From assembly GCA_045588405.1 (NCBI GenBank), contig JAZNEE010000122.1:1-31218 (forward strand): a stretch of 31,218 bases of DNA, given 5' to 3'. The translations under genes and the position numbers were made by a program. Positions 5,126 to 12,118 of this stretch are shown here, piece by piece. Origin of the DNA: Acutalibacteraceae bacterium. Its GTDB lineage: Bacteria; Bacillota; Clostridia; Oscillospirales; Acutalibacteraceae. Position 1 is the first letter of the stretch. The number at the start of each line of letters is the position of its first letter. Below the pieces are notes generated by a model. It was given only the letters and a program-made list of their open reading frames with translations. It did no database searches and was not told the origin of the DNA.

Positions 5126-5941
5126 TTACAGATTAAGGAAATCTTTTCTGTAAGGAAGACCAAATGCCTCGATGACGTCGCGAAGCTCGGTATCGAGAAT
5201 GGTGTTAACGTGGGGCATATGAGCGGTGAGCATGTAAAGCTGTGCTGCCTTTTCAACAGTTTCGATAAGACCAAAGGTTTCGTCCATATCTTTACCTGCA
5301 CCGTAGATGCCGTGGAGACCCCAAACAACCAAGCGGTACTCTTCCATCTTCTTGGCGGTTGCAACACCGATTTCGTTATTGCCGCAAACCATCCAGGGCA
5401 AAACGCCGATACCGTCGGGGAAAACAACGATACACTCGGTGCACATCTCCCAAATGGTGTGGGTGAACTTCTTATCGTCAAGCTCGTGAACGTGAGTCAT
5501 AGCAAGAGTGTATGTAGGATGGGTGTGCATAACAACGCGGTTCATAGGATCCTTTTTAAGACGTGCCATGTGGCTCATAAGGTGTGCAGGGAACTCGCTT
5601 GTGAACTTGCCACCATCTTTATAGCCCCAAAGAAGCTCTGCAGAGGTGCCGTCCTTTGCGATACGAACAATGCCGAGGTTGGTCTCGGGATCAATTTCAA
5701 CGTTCTTGAAATATTTACCGGTACCGGTAACGATGAAAATTTTGCCGATAAGCTCGGTTGCATCAAAGCCTAAAGGAATGGTACGGATAACATTATTGAG
5801 GTCAAGGTACTCTGCAACCTGCTCGGTTTCGAGCATGTAGCTGATGTTACCGCCGTTACGTTCATCCCAACCAAGACGGTACATATTAGCGGTTGCTCTC
5901 ATCATGTCTTCAACAAAAGGTGCCTTAAAAATGTCTTTCAT
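5126..5941 (-). CDS. rhaD: Rhamnulose-1-phosphate aldolase (class II aldolase)
   Basis: GWDERNGGNIS, VTGTGKYF, PTSE-like FTSEFPAH, metal-binding HTH (MHTHPT), WGLHGI; 271 aa. Confidence 0.88.
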   Translation of the reverse strand: MKDIFKAPFVEDMMRATANMYRLGWDERNGGNISYMLETEQVAEYLDLNNVIRTIPLGFDATELIGKIFIVTGTGKYFKNVEIDPETNLGIVRIAKDGTSAELLWGYKDGGKFTSEFPAHLMSHMARLKKDPMNRVVMHTHPTYTLAMTHVHELDDKKFTHTIWEMCTECIVVFPDGIGVLPWMVCGNNEIGVATAKKMEEYRLVVWGLHGIYGAGKDMDETFGLIETVEKAAQLYMLTAHMPHVNTILDTELRDVIEAFGLPYRKDFLNL

Positions 5942-5966: not shown

Positions 5967-7379
5967 TTATAAACTGTTAAGTTTTTCTTCAAGAAGCTTG
6001 CGGATAACGGCAGGATCGCCAACACCCTTAAGTTCCTTCATAATAAGACCGAACAAGCCTTGCATTGCCTTTGTTTTGCCACCCTTATAGTCATCAACCG
6101 CCTTCTGATTTTCGGCAATTACGCGACAAACGGTGTCAAGCACAACGCTTTCGTCAACCTTGGCGTTAAGTCCGTTCACGTCGCAATATTTGTCAACGTC
6201 AACATCAGACTCAAACACAGCAGCAAGAACCTTTTTACCTGCAGCACGGGTGATTTCAGCCTTTTCAACAAGCTCGATGATACGAGCAAGCTTTTTAGGC
6301 TCGATAGAAAGGGTTTCAAGTCCCAAATAGTTCATTCGGCTCATACATTCGGTCAAAATCCAACCGGCAACCGCTTTGGGGTTGCAACCAAATGCAACAA
6401 CCTTATCAAAAAACTCACAAAGGGTTAAATCGGAAGCGAGAACTGCGGCATCCTTTTCGTTGATGCCCATGTCAACATACTTCTGACCCTTTTCTTCTGC
6501 CGTTGCGGGCATACTTGCTCTGATTTTCTCAAGCCAAGCATCGTCAATAACGATGGGCATAAGGTTGGGATCGGGGAAATAACGGTAATCAGCGGCGGTT
6601 TCCTTGTTACGCATAGGGAAGGTGCGACGCTTGATTTCGTCCCAACGTCTTGTTTCCTGAACAAGCATTTCGGTGCGACGTTCGATTGCATCAACGTGAC
6701 GAACCTTTTCAAACTCGATAGCGTCCTTGATTTCGGCAAACGAGCTCATATTCTTGATTTCGGAACGAACGCCAAACTCGGTTGAACCTTCGGGACGAAC
6801 TGAAATGTTAACGTCGCAACGCATTGCACCCTCTTCGCACTCGGAAATACCTGCGAACTGCAACGAAGATTTAAGCTTTTTAAGATAAGCAATAACCTCA
6901 TCCGAACTACGGAAGTCGGGCTTGGTAACTATCTCAATAAGCGGAACGCTGGTACGGTTATAGTCAACGAGCGAAGTGTTGGTTGCATCGTCGTGAACAA
7001 GCTTACCTGCGTCTTCTTCAACGTGAATCTGTTTAATGCCGATCTGTCTGCCACCAATCTCAACCGAACCCTCAACGCAAATAGGATGGAACCACTGGGT
7101 TATCTGATAAGCGGAAGGAAGGTCGGGATAGTAATAGCTCTTTTTATCAAAGGTGGTATATTGATTGATTTTGCAGTTGAGCATAAAGCCTGCCTTTACT
7201 GCCAGTTCAATAGCGTGCTTGTTGGTGACGGGCAACATACCGGGCATACCGCTGCAAGCAGGGCAAACGCAATCGTTAGGCTCATCGGCAGCAGCGTGAC
7301 CACCGCAAGAACAGAACAATTTGGAATCGGTGGCAAGTTCAACGTGGGTCTCAAGACCAATAACTAATTCGTATTTCAT
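5967..7379 (-). CDS. gatB: Asp/Glu-tRNA amidotransferase subunit B
   Basis: IGLETHVEL, YYPDLPSAYQITQ, HVEEDAGKL, DYNRTSVPLIEIV, RCDVNIS, EIKN, YRYFPDP and a YqeY-like tail. The metal-binding motifs appear intact. Confidence 0.95.
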   Translation of the reverse strand: MKYELVIGLETHVELATDSKLFCSCGGHAAADEPNDCVCPACSGMPGMLPVTNKHAIELAVKAGFMLNCKINQYTTFDKKSYYYPDLPSAYQITQWFHPICVEGSVEIGGRQIGIKQIHVEEDAGKLVHDDATNTSLVDYNRTSVPLIEIVTKPDFRSSDEVIAYLKKLKSSLQFAGISECEEGAMRCDVNISVRPEGSTEFGVRSEIKNMSSFAEIKDAIEFEKVRHVDAIERRTEMLVQETRRWDEIKRRTFPMRNKETAADYRYFPDPNLMPIVIDDAWLEKIRASMPATAEEKGQKYVDMGINEKDAAVLASDLTLCEFFDKVVAFGCNPKAVAGWILTECMSRMNYLGLETLSIEPKKLARIIELVEKAEITRAAGKKVLAAVFESDVDVDKYCDVNGLNAKVDESVVLDTVCRVIAENQKAVDDYKGGKTKAMQGLFGLIMKELKGVGDPAVIRKLLEEKLNSL

Positions 7380-7394
7380 TGTAAAACTTCCTCC

Positions 7395-8549
7395 TTATTC
7401 CATAATTTCGGCAATTTTAAGAAGCTTGCCGTCGGCAAAATGATCACCAATAAGCTGAACACCCTTTGTCACAACTGCAGGCATACCTGTTATGGATGCA
7501 AGGCAGGTGAACTTGCTTTCATCGAACACCTTCAAGAAAGCATCGGTTTTGTAGCTTAAATCAAAACTACTGCTAGCAGGGGTTAAAACAGCATCGAATT
7601 TTGCGAAAATATCTTTAAGTGTTTCAACGGCAACACGACGGATTTTGAGTGCTTTATCATAGCAATCGTCATATCTGCCTTTTGACAAAACGTCGGAGCC
7701 ATAGATAATGGTGGCTTTGGTTAAGAAACCAAATGCTTCGGTACGGCTGCCAACATACAAATCATCAATGTTTTTGTAGCTTGCAGTGCGATGACCGTAT
7801 TTTACACCGTCAAAACGGGACAAATTGTTGGTGGTTTCAGCGCTCATCAAAATTGTCCAAGCGGTTTGAATCTCGTTTACAGCGTCAAGCGAAATTTCTT
7901 CAACTAATGCGCCTTTTTCTTCCATTGCTTTTTTATAAGCATCAATTTTTGCCTTAACGTCGTCGTTAGCGGCTGCATAAAGTTCTTTTACAAGGGCGAT
8001 TTTCATACCCTTTACATCGGCATTTACTTCATAATCATATTTTTCGGTGGGTAAAGAAGTGCCGTCTTTAGAGTCGTGACCTGCAACGGCTGTCAAAACC
8101 TCTCTTGCTTTGGCGGCGCACTTTGCGGTAACGCCAACCTGCTCACCCGAGCAAGCGCAAGCAATAATGCCGTAACGCGAAACGGTGCCATAGGTGGGTT
8201 TTACAAAGGTAGCGCCCGTAACAGCGGCGGCACGACGGGGTGCACCGTTTAAATCAACGTTTAATGCAACCTCAACGTCACCTGCCATAACGGCTTTTGC
8301 AGCGGCAGCGGTTTCGCCCTTAAAATAAGAGGTTTCGCCAATTACGTCGAGTCCAAACTCGCCAACGTTTGTTTTACCTTTGACGGTAAAGCCTGATTTT
8401 TCGGCTTTGTTTACAACCTCGGCCGAGAAAAGAGGCTTGAAGTTTTCAAGCATTTTAGAGCCTGCAGTAGCAGCGGTGTCCTTGACGAGCAAGGTGTCGT
8501 CAACAGCCAAGTTGCCGTTTTTGTTTATTTCGTTTATATAAAAGCTCAT
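7395..8549 (-). CDS. gatA: GatA-like amidase-fold subunit, N-terminally shortened, catalytic triad not recognisable
   Basis: SKMLENF, GKTN, KPTYGTVSRYG, NLSRFDGVKYG, ALKIRR align with GatA, and the gene lies between aspS-gatC and gatB. About 384 aa. Start placed at ATG 8549 behind GAGGTG. Confidence 0.88.
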   Translation of the reverse strand: MSFYINEINKNGNLAVDDTLLVKDTAATAGSKMLENFKPLFSAEVVNKAEKSGFTVKGKTNVGEFGLDVIGETSYFKGETAAAAKAVMAGDVEVALNVDLNGAPRRAAAVTGATFVKPTYGTVSRYGIIACACSGEQVGVTAKCAAKAREVLTAVAGHDSKDGTSLPTEKYDYEVNADVKGMKIALVKELYAAANDDVKAKIDAYKKAMEEKGALVEEISLDAVNEIQTAWTILMSAETTNNLSRFDGVKYGHRTASYKNIDDLYVGSRTEAFGFLTKATIIYGSDVLSKGRYDDCYDKALKIRRVAVETLKDIFAKFDAVLTPASSSFDLSYKTDAFLKVFDESKFTCLASITGMPAVVTKGVQLIGDHFADGKLLKIAEIME

Positions 8550-8559
8550 CATTAACACC

Positions 8560-10665
8560 TCACTTTACAAGTCTCGGAACCTGCCAGCTGTCTTCGGTGC
8601 TTTGAGGCGCACCTTTAAGCAGGTCTTCACGGGCAAAGGGTTGCTCGCGTTTATCGTCACGAAGAATATTGGTCATAGGCAAAACGTGAACCATAACGTC
8701 TTTACCCTCGGTATCAACCTTGCCCATTTCATCTTCTTTGTTTTTCATTGCTTTGAAGATTTCCTTCATAGCGGTTTCTTCTTCGGCAGTGAATTTAAGT
8801 TCGTTTACCTGCTGAAGTCCTTTAAGTTTATCCTTGCCACCCGAGGTTACACCTGCTGCAGCCTTAACGGTTTCGGCAAAAGCGTCTGCATCGCCACCCT
8901 CAACACCGATGGTAGCGCCTTGCTTACCTCTAACCTGAACGTTGGCTTCAAAGAGCTGAAGCTCGGTAACTTCACTCGGAGCGCCAAGCAACTGGTCCTG
9001 TGCAGTTCCGTCAAGCGGGAATGCAATAACGTCACGAATGGTTTCGGTATCGGCAAGAAGCATAACAATTCGGTCAACACCGGGTGCCATACCTGCATGA
9101 GGCGGTGCACCAAACTGGAACGCATTATAAAGTGCGCTGAATCTACGTTCAACCTCATCCTCAGAATAGCCTGCTATTTCAAAAGCTTTTCTCATGATTT
9201 CGGGGCTGTGGTTTCTAACAGCACCGGATGCAAGCTCAATACCGTTACATACAAGGTCGTACTGATATGCAAGGATTGTGGTTGGGTCTTTTGTGAGCAA
9301 AGCTTCAAGACCACCCTGAGGCATTGAGAACGGGTTGTGAGTGAATATAATGCTATCGGTAGCTTCGTCGAGCTCATACATCGGGAAGTCAACAACAAAG
9401 CAGAACTCGAACGAATCTTTATTAATAAGACCAAGCTCGTTACCAAGCCAGGTGCGGATAACACCTGCATTTTTATCGGCGGTGTTGGAAGAAGTGTCGC
9501 AAATGAAGAAGATGGTCTCGCCTTCTTTAAGTCCTGTGAGAAGCGCGATTTCCTTCTTCTGTTCCTCGGTCATAACCTTGGTGATGGGGTCATCTTTAAA
9601 CTTGTAACCGTCGGCTTCAAGCAAGGTGATATGAGCAAGACCTGCCATTTTAGCCTGCTTGGTTGCAAACTCCAAAGACTTATCGAAGAACCATCTTTCA
9701 GCCTTACAAGGAGCCACGATACCGCGAACAAACTTGTTTTTAAAGGGCTTGAACTCAACCCTTGTGAACATCTCGGTCAAATCGCAGATGATAAGCGGGT
9801 TGCGAAGGTCGGGCTTATCTGAACCGTATTTTGCCATACTTTCAGCATAAGGAATGCGTCTGAACGGCGAAGCGGTAACAGGTTTATCAGAGAAGGTGCG
9901 GAAAACGTTGCTTACAACGTCCTCACAAATCTGCAAAACCTCGTCTTGGGTTGAAAAAGCCATTTCAAAGTCGAGCTGATAGAATTCACCGGGTGAACGG
10001 TCAGCACGAGCGTCCTCATCACGGAAGCAGGGTGCAATCTGGTAATATTTATCAAAGCCCGAAACCATAAGCAACTGTTTGAACTGCTGAGGTGCCTGGG
10101 GAAGCGCATAGAACTTGCCGGGATGCTTACGGCTGGGAACGAGGAAGTCACGAGCACCTTCGGGTGAAGATGCGGTGAGGATAGGAGTTTGAATATCAAG
10201 GAATCCTCTTTCCTCCATGAGCTTTCTCATGTGTCCGATAACCTTCGAACGAAGAATAATGTTATTATGAAGTGCAGGGTTTCTAAGATCCAAGAAACGG
10301 TGCTTTAAACGAATGTTTTCGTTGGTGTCGGTTGCGCCGATTTCAAAAGGCAAGTCACGAGTACAGGTGCCCAAAATCTCAGCTTTATCGGCAACAAGCT
10401 CAACAAGACCCGTTTCAATTCTTGCGTTTACGGTGTCGGGGTCACGCTCGGTGACAACACCCGAAACCGACAAAACGGTCTCCTTACCTACTCCTTTAAG
10501 CAAGTTTTCGTCGTGGAAAACGACCTGGGTCACACCGGTTTCGTCACGAAGATCTACGAAAAGTACGCCGCCGTGGTCACGAATAACGTCTACCCAACCG
10601 GCAAGCTGAACATTAGCTCCGATGTGTTCCTTTCTTATTTCATTGCAACGATGAGTTCTATACAT
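8560..10665 (-). CDS. aspS: Aspartate-tRNA ligase (probably non-discriminating) fused at its C-terminus to a GatC-like domain
   Basis: YRTHRC, RDHGG, RLKHRFLDLR, PEGARDF, ALPQAPQ, QIAPCFRDEDARADR, GAPPHAG. The last ~88 aa resemble GatC (DTEG..VHVLPMTNILRDD..REDLLKGAP..WQVPRLV). Start ATG 10665 with GGAGG RBS. Confidence 0.93.
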   Translation of the reverse strand: MYRTHRCNEIRKEHIGANVQLAGWVDVIRDHGGVLFVDLRDETGVTQVVFHDENLLKGVGKETVLSVSGVVTERDPDTVNARIETGLVELVADKAEILGTCTRDLPFEIGATDTNENIRLKHRFLDLRNPALHNNIILRSKVIGHMRKLMEERGFLDIQTPILTASSPEGARDFLVPSRKHPGKFYALPQAPQQFKQLLMVSGFDKYYQIAPCFRDEDARADRSPGEFYQLDFEMAFSTQDEVLQICEDVVSNVFRTFSDKPVTASPFRRIPYAESMAKYGSDKPDLRNPLIICDLTEMFTRVEFKPFKNKFVRGIVAPCKAERWFFDKSLEFATKQAKMAGLAHITLLEADGYKFKDDPITKVMTEEQKKEIALLTGLKEGETIFFICDTSSNTADKNAGVIRTWLGNELGLINKDSFEFCFVVDFPMYELDEATDSIIFTHNPFSMPQGGLEALLTKDPTTILAYQYDLVCNGIELASGAVRNHSPEIMRKAFEIAGYSEDEVERRFSALYNAFQFGAPPHAGMAPGVDRIVMLLADTETIRDVIAFPLDGTAQDQLLGAPSEVTELQLFEANVQVRGKQGATIGVEGGDADAFAETVKAAAGVTSGGKDKLKGLQQVNELKFTAEEETAMKEIFKAMKNKEDEMGKVDTEGKDVMVHVLPMTNILRDDKREQPFAREDLLKGAPQSTEDSWQVPRLVK

Positions 10666-10704
10666 TTTATTACCTCCAATTGTGTTGCATAAATTACTGT
10701 GAAT

Positions 10705-10920
10705 AAACAAAAACGTCCCGAGAATCTTTACGATTCCCGGGACGAGTATAAACCCGCGGTGCCACCCGTTTTGACGCCCAAAACAAGACGTCCTCTTTTA
10801 ATATTCAATTCCAAGTGGTCAAACGAAGTGTTGCCGAACTTACTACTCACTTTAAGCACGCTTTCAGCCGGTGACATGCTCTCTCTTTCAAGTTTTCCTG
10901 GAAAGTCGGGTCTTCATCGG
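10705..10920 (-). promoter_or_regulatory. T-box riboswitch leader of the aspS-gatC/gatA/gatB operon
   Basis: Minus strand shows an AGAGA-like box (AAAGAGAGAG), GCTGAA motif, T-box AACGGGTGGCACCGCGG (about 10770-10754) and terminator CGTCCCGGGAATC-GTAAA-GATTCTCGGGACG-TTTTTGTTT (about 10745-10705). Confidence 0.92.
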
Positions 10921-10924
10921 GTAG

Positions 10925-10953
10925 ATTATATCAAACATTTAAAAATTTGTCAA
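10925..10953 (-). promoter_or_regulatory. Consensus sigma-A promoter of the T-box leader
   Basis: TTGACA (10953-10948), 17 nt, TATAAT (10930-10925). Confidence 0.88.
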
Positions 10954-10960
10954 TACATTT

Positions 10961-12097
10961 TTAAATGAGCTCTTTTGCCAAAGCCTTTATCTGCTCTTTT
11001 GACTGCTCGTTTAATGCCGAGCGAACAGTTACGGTTGTTTCGGCAAAAGTGATTTCTTTACTGTTTTCAAAGTGTTTTTTAATGATTTTAGCAGCTTGAG
11101 GTGCCCAGGTTCCGTTTTCAATAATACCTATAAAACGGTTGCGATAGCCTCTTTCGACAAGCTCGTGAACAAACTCGCGCATAAAGGGGAAAATATCGCC
11201 GTTATAGGTGGTGGTTGCAAGCACTATTTTGCCGTAACGGAAGGCATCTTCAACACATTCTGCCATATCTGAGCGTGCCAAATCGTTGACAACAACCTTA
11301 GGACATCCCAAAGCCTTTAACTCACCTTCCAAAACTTCGACAGCAGCCTTTGTGTTGCCATAGACCGAGGTGTAGCAAATAGCAACACCTTCGCTCTCAA
11401 CACCATAGCTCGACCAGGTGTTATAAAGGTCAAGATAATAGCCCAGATTTTCGCTCAAAACAGGTCCGTGAAGCGGATAGATGGTGTTGATTTCCAAAGC
11501 GGCAGCTTTTTTAAGCACGTTTTGAACCTGAACACCGTATTTTCCAACAATGCCGATATAATATCTTCTTGCCTCGCAAGCCCAATCCTCATCGACATCC
11601 AAAGCGCCGAATTTTCCGAAAGCATCGGCAGAAAACAATGCTTTTTCGTTAGAATCATAGGTCATCATAACCTCGGGCCAATGAACCATGGGTGCCAAAA
11701 CGAAGGTAAGCTGGTGACCGCCAAGATCCAAAGTATCTCCCTCTTTTACAACAAGCCTGCGATCGGCATAATCGGTGCCGAAAAATGCACTCATCATATT
11801 GAAAGCCTTATCGGTTGCAACGATGGTTGCCTTAGGGTATTTTAAGGCAAAATTATGCACGTTGGCCGAATGGTCAGGCTCCATATGTTGAACGACAAGG
11901 TAATCGGGGGCTTTGCCCTCTAACGCTTTATCAATATTGGAAAGCCACTCGTCGCCAAACTTTTTATCAACCGAGTCCATAATTGCGATTTTGTCACCAA
12001 TCACCGCATAAGAATTATATGCCATTCCGTTAGGAACGATGTATTGACCTTCGAAAAGGTCGATCTCGTGGTCATTTACACCGACATATTTTATCAT
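10961..12097 (-). CDS. Flavodiiron protein (FprA family; metallo-beta-lactamase-like plus flavodoxin domains)
   Basis: HMEPDH, PMVHWPE, DAFG, PLHG, and flavodoxin-like YTSVYGNT. Start at ATG 12097 (GTG 12106 is an alternative). Confidence 0.9.
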   Translation of the reverse strand: MIKYVGVNDHEIDLFEGQYIVPNGMAYNSYAVIGDKIAIMDSVDKKFGDEWLSNIDKALEGKAPDYLVVQHMEPDHSANVHNFALKYPKATIVATDKAFNMMSAFFGTDYADRRLVVKEGDTLDLGGHQLTFVLAPMVHWPEVMMTYDSNEKALFSADAFGKFGALDVDEDWACEARRYYIGIVGKYGVQVQNVLKKAAALEINTIYPLHGPVLSENLGYYLDLYNTWSSYGVESEGVAICYTSVYGNTKAAVEVLEGELKALGCPKVVVNDLARSDMAECVEDAFRYGKIVLATTTYNGDIFPFMREFVHELVERGYRNRFIGIIENGTWAPQAAKIIKKHFENSKEITFAETTVTVRSALNEQSKEQIKALAKELI

Positions 12098-12118
12098 AGA
12101 AAACACTTCCTTTTATAT

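What the first reader, a model, noticed from the sequence alone, without database searches (positions are those of the whole stretch)
5967..10953. System-level: a compact, tRNA-sensing, possibly ammonia-dependent tethered Asn-transamidosome
Seen together: consensus promoter, T-box, aspS::gatC fusion, triad-less shortened gatA and intact gatB, all tightly spaced. Inference: the fusion and the loss of GatA catalysis may be co-evolved features of a distinct amidotransferase class dedicated to Asn-tRNA formation and fed by free NH3, which is plausible in ammonia-rich gut or rumen habitats. This departs from the textbook Gln-dependent GatCAB and is the strongest candidate for an undescribed system in this window.
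Basis: inference. Interest (0 to 1): 0.85.

Follow-up and report, generated by a model that had tools for sequence, protein, structure and literature searches.

The report
Glutaminase-dead, AspRS-tethered asparagine transamidosome operon
Uncultured gut Clostridia carry a tRNA-Asn-sensing operon for making Asn-tRNA in which the glutamine-splitting subunit has lost its active site. In many of these species it is the only detectable route to Asn-tRNA, so the enzyme must get its nitrogen another way, most likely from free ammonia.

Summary
- a perfect sigma-70 promoter;
- a T-box leader with an AAC (Asn) specifier;
- one 701-aa ORF fusing bacterial-type AspRS to GatC;
- a 385-aa GatA paralog (GatA*) that lacks the Lys/cis-Ser/Ser triad and the three Gln-binding residues;
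- a GatB with its catalytic motifs kept.

GatA* is not decay. It forms one clade, separate from canonical GatA, in about 60 species-level MAGs and is under purifying selection (dN/dS about 0.09). It always sits in the order aspS2-gatC-gatA*-gatB behind an Asn T-box.

Of 40 other GatA* genomes searched, 18 have neither AsnRS nor a canonical GatA, so the module must work there. GlnRS is present in all 12 genomes tested, so the module serves Asn only. Ammonia as the nitrogen donor is inferred, not shown.

The fusion is not strictly coupled to triad loss: 19 loci are unfused. This genome also has a canonical gatCAB-aspS(archaeal-type) operon.

New here:
- most GatB partners lack two residues in the 3-10 turn that reads the U1-A72 pair;
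- four fused-type genomes have tRNA-Asn with G1-C72;
- the operon AspRS shares RDHGG with solved non-discriminating AspRSs.

This scan has already met the same family in several other genomes. I found no paper that describes it.

The parts
10925..10953 (-). sigma-70 promoter, TTGACA-17-TATAAT with extended TG
   Evidence: 12 of 12 matches, the best site in the region
10704..10918 (-). T-box leader (tRNA-Asn sensing): stem I about 10918-10822, T-box sequence 10767-10755, terminator hairpin 10744-10714 plus T-run
   Evidence: RF00230 48 bits, E 1.3e-9, below gathering. Leaders of 12 related loci pass gathering at 98-130 bits
10830..10832 (-). specifier codon AAC (Asn), followed by the usual purine (A10829), at the 3' side of the specifier loop
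   Evidence: fold. AAC plus purine is read at this position in 53 of the 57 related leaders examined, while the flanking stems vary
8926..10665 (-). AspRS2: bacterial-type aspartyl-tRNA synthetase portion of the fusion ORF
   Evidence: The RDHGG motif is shared with solved Asp/Asn (non-discriminating) ligases 4rmf, 5w25 and 5gro. Housekeeping AspRS1 of relatives has RDLG, RDKG or RNLG
8833..8925 (-). Gly/Ala-rich linker of about 30 aa between AspRS2 and GatC
   Evidence: translation; lies between the family matches
8560..8832 (-). GatC domain fused in frame to AspRS2 (stop TGA 8562-8560)
   Evidence: Pfam GatC 33.4 bits (cut-off 23), TIGR00135 43.9 bits (cut-off 47.1). At least 256 clusters of about 701-aa fused proteins exist in public data
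7395..8558 (-). GatA*: shortened GatA paralog without the catalytic triad; likely start ATG 8552 after GAGGTG
   Evidence: D20 (8501-8499), T83 (8312-8310) and A106 (8243-8241) replace K79, S154 and S178. dN/dS is 0.08-0.09
5967..7379 (-). GatB: kinase/transamidase subunit with YqeY tail
   Evidence: Motifs around S. aureus H12, E124-D126, E150 and R190-N194 are kept
6837..6842 (-). site of a 2-residue deletion in the GatB 3-10 turn (between E180 and C181), the element that reads U1-A72 in bacterial GatB
   Evidence: All 29 canonical GatB rows compared keep the two residues. PMC2811023 gives the function of the turn

Best explanation
The stretch is a self-contained, tRNA-Asn-regulated module for tRNA-dependent asparagine synthesis. 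When uncharged tRNA-Asn accumulates, it pairs with the AAC specifier and the T-box bulge, prevents the leader terminator from forming, and lets the operon be transcribed. AspRS2 is a dedicated paralog that resembles non-discriminating AspRS and puts Asp on tRNA-Asn. Its C-terminal GatC domain clamps GatA* to GatB, so synthetase and amidotransferase form one covalently tethered transamidosome. GatB phosphorylates Asp-tRNA-Asn and amidates it to Asn-tRNA-Asn. GatA* cannot hydrolyse glutamine and serves as the structural partner that GatB and GatC need. The amide nitrogen therefore comes from free ammonia. Ammonia may enter through the remodelled former glutaminase pocket and tunnel, or reach GatB directly. 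Shown: the anatomy, the conservation, the loss of all glutaminase residues, and that the module is the only detectable route in many relatives. Inferred: complex assembly, the regulatory logic, and ammonia as the donor. In this genome the module works beside a canonical gatCAB-aspS(archaeal-type) operon, probably as the Asn-starvation-induced system.
For: Anatomy.
GatA*:
- It forms one clade against canonical GatA (100 SH-aLRT).
- All 63 copies have Asp or Glu in place of the catalytic Lys and no GGSS motif, while 24 of 24 canonical copies keep them.
- The Gln-binding residues Y309, R358 and D425 of S. aureus GatA (named in bioRxiv 10.1101/733030) align to W234, T283 and S348.
- It is under purifying selection, dN/dS 0.08-0.09 against 0.03-0.04 for AspRS and GatB. 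There are 74 invariant columns across 19 copies down to 45% identity.
Gene order and leader:
- The order aspS2-gatC-gatA*-gatB holds wherever the contig allows it to be read, except L100, where no AspRS hit was found.
- An AAC specifier is read in 53 of 57 leaders.
Need for the module:
- Of 40 other GatA* genomes, 24 lack a canonical GatA and 18 lack both canonical GatA and AsnRS. Five of the 18 are 97-99% complete.
- Four of those five also lack AsnA and AsnB.
- Control: 15 of 16 same-family genomes with no GatA homolog have AsnRS.
Other points:
- GlnRS is present in 12 of 12 genomes.
- No conserved neighbouring glutaminase gene.
- AdTs can use NH4Cl in place of Gln in vitro (PMC4027206).
- Related MAG records come from ruminant and hindgut samples and anaerobic digesters.
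Against: - No biochemical test exists, and ammonia use is argued by exclusion.
- A GatA-like protein without glutaminase activity (Tse8) is proposed to poison canonical GatCAB in P. aeruginosa by taking GatA's place (bioRxiv 10.1101/733030). If so, ammonia does not trivially rescue an ordinary complex, and special adaptation or high ammonia would be needed.
- All carriers are MAGs. Completeness is unknown for 30 of the 40 genomes.
- This genome is 71% complete and has a canonical gatCAB, so the module is not demonstrably essential here.
- About 15 GatA* copies keep Ser or Thr at the nucleophile position.
Confidence: 0.6

Rival explanations
1. The module is a working Asn amidotransferase, but its nitrogen comes from a separate glutaminase or asparaginase encoded elsewhere that docks on GatA* or GatB, or from another amide donor, not from bulk ammonia.
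For: The strong conservation of the remodelled former active-site segment (VDxNGAPRR; invariant D102, N104, G105, R109) suggests the pocket still binds something. The Tse8 work (bioRxiv 10.1101/733030) is consistent with a glutaminase-less canonical complex not being enough in vivo.
Against: No conserved extra gene lies in or next to the operon in about 60 loci. No such partner is known for any GatCAB. The genomes are small (1.3-2.5 Mb).
Confidence: 0.2
2. GatA* has evolved a new hydrolytic chemistry that does not use the triad and still supplies ammonia from Gln or Asn.
For: New invariant acidic and basic residues sit in the old pocket (D21, D102, R109, E347). Ser or Thr is kept at the nucleophile position in about 15 copies.
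Against: The catalytic Lys, the cis-Ser loop and all three Gln-binding residues are replaced, and the GGSS loop is deleted. The nucleophile position is Ala in most copies.
Confidence: 0.05
3. The module does not amidate at all. It would be a decaying duplicate, or a regulatory or sequestering complex for Asp-tRNA-Asn.
For: This genome and 15 of the 40 other GatA* genomes also have a canonical GatA. Expression could not be examined.
Against: All four parts are under purifying selection. GatB catalytic motifs are intact. 18 genomes have no other route to Asn-tRNA-Asn, and the AsnRS detection control works.
Confidence: 0.05

Closest known systems
Clostridium acetobutylicum T-box-controlled aspS-gatCAB operon (Saad et al. 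2012, J Biol Chem 287:20382). The paper is not held here; its content is stated from my own knowledge, and only the reference and a short mention stand in PMC4206432 (ref. 18).
   Same: A tRNA-Asn-dependent T-box in front of an operon that joins an extra AspRS with amidotransferase genes. It coexists with a second gatCAB set and serves tRNA-dependent Asn synthesis.
   Different: No triad-less GatA and no AspRS-GatC fusion are known to me for that operon. I could not read the paper to check.
Canonical bacterial GatCAB (S. aureus 2DF4/3IP4, T. maritima 3AL0, A. aeolicus 3H0L)
   Same: GatB is 367-396 bits to these chains with its motifs kept. GatA* is still the best sequence match to their GatA (about 195 bits). 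A GatC domain is present.
   Different: GatA* lacks about 60 N-terminal residues, the GGSS loop, the Ser-cisSer-Lys triad and the Gln-binding residues. GatC is fused to AspRS. GatB lacks two residues of the 3-10 turn. The system serves Asn only.
Asn-transamidosomes of T. thermophilus (3KFU) and P. aeruginosa (4WJ3)
   Same: ND-AspRS, tRNA-Asn and GatCAB act together so that Asp-tRNA-Asn is not released.
   Different: Those complexes are non-covalent and depend on tRNA. Here AspRS2 is covalently joined to GatC, so the tether is built in. Assembly is inferred, not shown.
Archaeal GatCAB
   Same: It serves Asn only, lacks the GatB 3-10 turn and accepts G1-C72 tRNA-Asn (PMC2811023). Most GatB partners of GatA* have a shortened turn, and four carrier genomes have G1-C72 tRNA-Asn.
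   Different: Archaeal GatA is an active glutaminase. The proteins here are bacterial in sequence.
NCBIfam NF009460 (PRK12820), bifunctional AspRS/GatC
   Same: The same domain idea: AspRS with a C-terminal GatC.
   Different: The window protein scores 433 bits against a cut-off of 1379 and matches only the AspRS part, model positions 25-619. This points to a separate fusion lineage. NCBI names these proteins plain aspartate--tRNA ligase.
Tse8 of P. aeruginosa (bioRxiv 10.1101/733030)
   Same: A GatA-like amidase-signature protein without glutaminase activity that is proposed to take GatA's place next to GatB and GatC.
   Different: Tse8 keeps the triad, is a secreted toxin and is proposed to block the complex. 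GatA* is the resident subunit of a complex that must be active.

Membership tests
GatCAB amidotransferase | GatB with catalytic cradle domain and YqeY tail | tested here: met
   PF02934 364.9 bits, PF02637 113.3 bits, NF004012 562.7 bits (cut-off 338). Motifs align to 2df4_B and 3al0_B.
GatCAB amidotransferase | GatC subunit | tested here: met
   Pfam GatC 33.4 bits (cut-off 23), as a domain fused to AspRS. TIGR00135 scores 43.9 bits, just under its cut-off of 47.1.
GatCAB amidotransferase | GatA with the amidase-signature Ser-cisSer-Lys triad (glutaminase) | tested here: not met
   K79->D, S154->T and S178->A; the GGSS loop is deleted. TIGR00132 scores 253.8 bits against a cut-off of 481.1.
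GatCAB amidotransferase | Glutamine-dependent transamidation of Asp-tRNA-Asn or Glu-tRNA-Gln | not testable with these tools
   Needs an enzyme assay. The genomic context argues for Asp-tRNA-Asn only: GlnRS in 12 of 12 genomes.
GatCAB amidotransferase (bacterial type) | GatB 3-10 turn that selects U1-A72 (PMC2811023) | tested here: not met
   A two-residue deletion at the turn in the window GatB and in 47 of 61 GatB rows from GatA* loci. It is absent from all 29 canonical GatB rows.
T-box leader (RF00230) | Rfam gathering score | tested here: not met
   48 bits against 93. The leaders of 12 unfused relatives score 98-130 bits.
T-box leader (RF00230) | T-box sequence with competing terminator, and a specifier codon followed by a purine | tested here: met
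   GGGTGGCACCGCG is followed by a 13-pair terminator. AAC-A sits at the 3' side of the specifier loop and is read in 53 of 57 leaders.
Bacterial-type AspRS | Class II core, OB anticodon domain, GAD insertion | tested here: met
   NF001750 737.5 bits (cut-off 443). PF00152 and PF01336 pass. GAD scores 22.9 bits against a cut-off of 23.4, so it is borderline.
Non-discriminating AspRS | Charges tRNA-Asn as well as tRNA-Asp | tested here: inconclusive
   The best solved matches of the anticodon domain are Asp/Asn ligases that share RDHGG. All 67 operon AspRS2 rows have His at that position and 8 of 8 housekeeping AspRS1 have Leu or Lys. Specificity itself needs an assay.
NF009460 bifunctional AspRS/GatC | Full-length match above the curated cut-off | tested here: not met
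   433.2 bits against 1379; only the AspRS part matches.

The most novel reading that the evidence does not exclude
This lineage is a new operating mode of tRNA-dependent amidation: a covalently tethered AspRS2::GatC-GatA*-GatB machine that runs on free ammonia. Its GatB has given up first-base-pair proofreading because the fused, tRNA-Asn-accepting synthetase hands the substrate over directly. That would free tRNA-Asn to drift from U1-A72 to G1-C72, which is otherwise an archaeal trait.
Probability: 0.3. Interest if true: 0.85.

Novelty: new variant of a known kind. Interest (0 to 1): 0.72.

Why it matters
As far as I know, GatCAB is always described as a glutamine-dependent enzyme whose GatA glutaminase feeds GatB through an ammonia tunnel. 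A natural, widespread lineage would overturn that as a general rule if three things hold: GatA is catalytically dead, the complex is the only route to Asn-tRNA-Asn, and in some species it is also the only route to asparagine.

It would also give a natural test case for three questions:
- How ammonia enters such tunnels.
- Why GatB needs GatA at all.
- What a covalent synthetase-amidotransferase tether does for fidelity.

It further links translation in abundant, uncultured ruminant and hindgut Clostridia to ammonia supply. Public annotation misses the system: GatA* is called a hypothetical protein and the fusion protein a plain aspartate--tRNA ligase.

Tried and rejected
- Complex prediction on GatB + GatC domain + GatA*: no verdict. 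The score was 0.93, but a control with GatB replaced scored 0.88. It is not used as evidence either way.
- Expression: no RNA holder was listed for the operon or for gatA* alone.
- Rfam at gathering on the whole window found nothing. The T-box appears only in the permissive search. That Rfam alignment puts stem I over the promoter and is partly wrong, so I read stem I from the fold and from homologs instead.
- The VKD a few residues downstream in GatA* looks like the catalytic Lys context, but alignments place K79 opposite D20. I rejected the idea that the Lys is retained.
- A conserved neighbouring glutaminase: the flanks encode a flavodiiron-like protein and a class II aldolase. The aldolase is not found, and the flavodiiron-like gene is found only in the closest relatives, among the other loci.
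- A tRNA-Asn gene next to the operon: none found. The own assembly holds no tRNA-Asn at all.
- The order of events from the GatA tree: the careful tree did not finish, and the quick tree has a weak backbone with fused and unfused rows interleaved. I rely on the nested character pattern and leave the polarity open.
- Papers Saad 2012/2013, Wu 2009 and Zhao 2012 are not held, so tunnel residues could not be checked against the literature.
- The literature search for H31/G83 as ND-AspRS markers found nothing. That attribution rests on memory and on the PDB alignment only.
Full report
**What is in the window**

The minus strand of 10953-5967 holds one compact transcription unit. A perfect TTGACA-17-TATAAT promoter with an extended TG lies at 10953-10925. 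A leader of about 215 nt follows. Rfam finds no T-box at gathering on the whole window. A permissive scan of 10600-11050 gives RF00230 at 48 bits (gathering 93), E 1.3e-9. The invariant T-box sequence (10767-10755) and a 13-pair terminator with a T-run (10744-10714) are plain in the sequence.

Folding stem I leaves CAACA as the 3' side of the specifier loop. The specifier is therefore AAC (10832-10830) followed by A. The T-box bulge reads UGGC, which fits a G73 discriminator.

**The three genes**

- The first ORF (10665-8560, 701 aa) is a bacterial-type AspRS (NF001750, 737 bits). It is joined through a Gly/Ala-rich linker of about 30 residues to a GatC domain (Pfam 33.4 bits, cut-off 23).
- Seven to ten bases after its stop, behind GAGGTG, starts a 385-387-aa GatA homolog, here called GatA*.
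- Fifteen bases after the GatA* stop, behind GGAGG, starts a 470-aa GatB. It scores 562.7 bits against a cut-off of 338 and keeps the catalytic motifs of solved GatBs.

**GatA* is a pseudo-glutaminase**

- Against S. aureus GatA (2df4), GatA* starts at about residue 60-75.
- K79 aligns to D20, S154 to T83 and S178 to A106. Thirteen residues that include the GGSS loop are missing.
- The three Gln-binding residues of S. aureus GatA (Y309, R358, D425, as named in bioRxiv 10.1101/733030) align to W234, T283 and S348.
- The VKD a few residues downstream is a decoy, not the catalytic Lys.
- TIGR00132 gives 253.8 bits against a cut-off of 481.

**GatA* is a conserved family, not decay**

A protein search returns hundreds of proteins of 385-396 aa at 64-95% identity. 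The few that carry a name are called hypothetical proteins of Clostridia or Ruminococcaceae MAGs. I collected 63 copies from species-level genomes; two records entered twice.

- All have Asp (one has Glu) in place of the Lys, and none has the GGSS motif. Most have Ala at the nucleophile position, and about 15 have Ser or Thr. All 24 canonical GatAs compared keep all three features.
- The copies form one clade separated from canonical GatA by a long branch with 100 SH-aLRT support (quick tree).
- Nineteen copies down to 45% identity share 74 invariant columns.
- Between the window and two close relatives, dN/dS is 0.08-0.09 for GatA* and for linker+GatC, and 0.03-0.04 for the AspRS core and GatB. 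This is strong purifying selection, somewhat looser than on the catalytic partners.

**Context is constant**

Wherever the contig allows, the gene order is aspS2-gatC-gatA*-gatB. One locus (L100) showed no AspRS hit upstream.

A T-box precedes aspS2. The exact T-box motif was found in 46 of 57 leaders, and Rfam confirmed a T-box in 12 of the 16 loci submitted, including most leaders that lacked the exact motif. Two leader types occur. The divergent, unfused loci have a canonical leader that passes Rfam gathering at 98-130 bits. The fused group has a derived stem I, which explains the 48 bits here.

In 53 of the 57 leaders the specifier reads AAC plus a purine, while the flanking helices vary. 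The flanking genes are not conserved, and none is a glutaminase.

**Is the module needed?**

*This genome.* The own genome is a MAG of 1.2 Mb in 215 contigs, 71% complete. On another contig it also has a canonical gatC-gatA-gatB followed by an archaeal-type aspartate--tRNA(Asn) ligase (NF003483, 481.7 bits). It has GlnRS. AsnRS, AsnA and AsnB were not found. Here the T-box module is therefore a second system.

*Relatives.* In relatives the picture is sharper.
- In a one-genome-per-genus sample of the family, about 11 of 151 genomes carry GatA*.
- At order level, 22 of 396 good genomes in 7 further families carry it.
- Of 40 other GatA* genomes searched, 24 lack a canonical GatA and 18 lack both a canonical GatA and AsnRS.
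- Five of the 18 are 97-99% complete (G011, G064, G067, G087, G092). In these, the only GatB lies in the module.
- Four of those five also lack AsnA and AsnB, so the module would be their only source of asparagine.
- As a control on detection, 15 of 16 family genomes that have no GatA homolog at all do have AsnRS.
- GlnRS is present in all 12 genomes tested, so the amidotransferase serves Asn only.

The module must therefore make Asn-tRNA-Asn without a GatA glutaminase.

**Source of the nitrogen**

This step is inferred. AdTs transamidate with NH4Cl in place of Gln in vitro (PMC4027206). No extra conserved gene accompanies the operon. The carrier MAG records come from ruminant and hindgut samples and from anaerobic digesters, which are habitats generally rich in ammonia (my own knowledge). 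I therefore favour free ammonia.

One caution applies. A GatA-like protein without glutaminase activity (Tse8) is proposed to poison canonical GatCAB in P. aeruginosa (bioRxiv 10.1101/733030). A simple loss of the glutaminase may therefore not be tolerated without adaptation. A glutaminase acting in trans remains the main rival explanation.

**Fusion versus triad loss**

The fusion occurs in 37 loci and is absent in 19; five loci are cut by contig ends. Every fusion seen here sits with GatA*, but not the reverse.

A third character is nested between the two. The window GatB and 47 of 61 GatB rows from GatA* loci lack two residues exactly in the 3-10 turn (S. aureus K183-E185). All 29 canonical GatB rows keep them. 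All 37 fused loci have the deletion, 6 unfused rows have it and 13 unfused rows do not.

The simplest order of events is triad loss, then the GatB deletion, then the fusion. The quick tree does not resolve the root inside the clade, so this order is a suggestion only.

**tRNA recognition**

The 3-10 turn is what lets bacterial GatCAB prefer U1-A72 over G1-C72. Archaeal GatB lacks it and accepts both pairs (PMC2811023).

- tRNA-Asn has G1-C72 in four carrier genomes (G011, G067, G536, G539). All four are of the fused type with the deletion.
- Three of those four have neither AsnRS nor a canonical GatA.
- Eight other carriers have U1-A72. tRNA-Asp has G1-C72 throughout and keeps a longer D-loop.
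- The numbers are small, and tRNA genes are often missing from MAGs.

**AspRS2**

Most carriers have a second, housekeeping bacterial AspRS elsewhere (730-790 bits, against 590-640 for the operon copy). G092 has only the fused copy.

All 67 operon copies compared read RDHGG in the anticodon-binding domain and have a loop two residues longer. All 8 housekeeping copies read RDLG, RDKG or RNLG. The best solved matches of this domain are ligases named Asp/Asn, from M. smegmatis, M. tuberculosis and H. pylori, with the same RDHGG. This fits a tRNA-Asn-accepting paralog, but specificity was not tested.

**Comparison with what is known**

- The nearest described system, from my own knowledge, is the tRNA-Asn T-box-controlled aspS-gatCAB operon of C. 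acetobutylicum (Saad et al. 2012). That paper is not held here; PMC4206432 lists it as ref. 18 and mentions it briefly.
- What differs here is the dead and shortened GatA, the GatC fusion, the shortened GatB turn, and the fact that the module is the sole route in many species.
- NCBIfam has a bifunctional AspRS/GatC model (NF009460). The window protein misses its cut-off by far and matches only in the AspRS part.
- Three literature searches found no description of a triad-less GatA in a GatCAB.
- Earlier notes of this scan describe the same family in at least seven other genomes with the same reading. They are not independent evidence. None mentions the GatB turn or the tRNA-Asn base pair.

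**Verdict**

This is a real, conserved, Asn-dedicated, glutaminase-dead variant of the transamidosome. The fusion is a later addition within it, and ammonia as donor is the most likely mechanism but is untested.

Noticed in passing
window 5126-5941 (-): A class II aldolase gene starts 23 nt after the gatB stop, with its own Shine-Dalgarno sequence and no terminator between them, so it may be co-transcribed. It was not found next to gatB in any related locus.
   Followed up: partly
own genome contig C197:1100-5684 (L001, L003): A canonical gatC-gatA-gatB operon is directly followed by an archaeal-type aspartate--tRNA(Asn) ligase. The same-genus genome G005 has this operon plus AsnRS and AsnB, but no GatA* module and no bacterial-type AspRS.
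   Followed up: partly
L138:633-708, L140:1463-1538, L154, L155 (relatives G011, G067, G536, G539): tRNA-Asn with G1-C72 instead of the bacterial U1-A72. In three of these genomes neither AsnRS nor a canonical GatA was found.
   Followed up: partly
L047 and L048 (genome G011): One genome carries two complete fused GatA* modules from different subclades and has no canonical GatA, AsnRS or AsnB.
   Followed up: partly
L100; G555:C211:1692-3086; G321:C96:16131-17294: One GatA* locus (L100) shows no AspRS or T-box hit upstream. One canonical gatA has an in-frame TAA, and one GatA* has an in-frame TAG.
   Followed up: no
window 10707-10778 (-): Rfam's permissive scan also reports CopA-like RNA (29.6 bits, gathering 60) on the T-box terminator hairpin. 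This is most likely a chance match to the stem.
   Followed up: no
window 10961-12106 (-): The gene upstream of the promoter encodes a metallo-beta-lactamase/ODP plus flavodoxin protein (flavodiiron-like). Its position next to the operon is conserved only in the closest relatives.
   Followed up: partly
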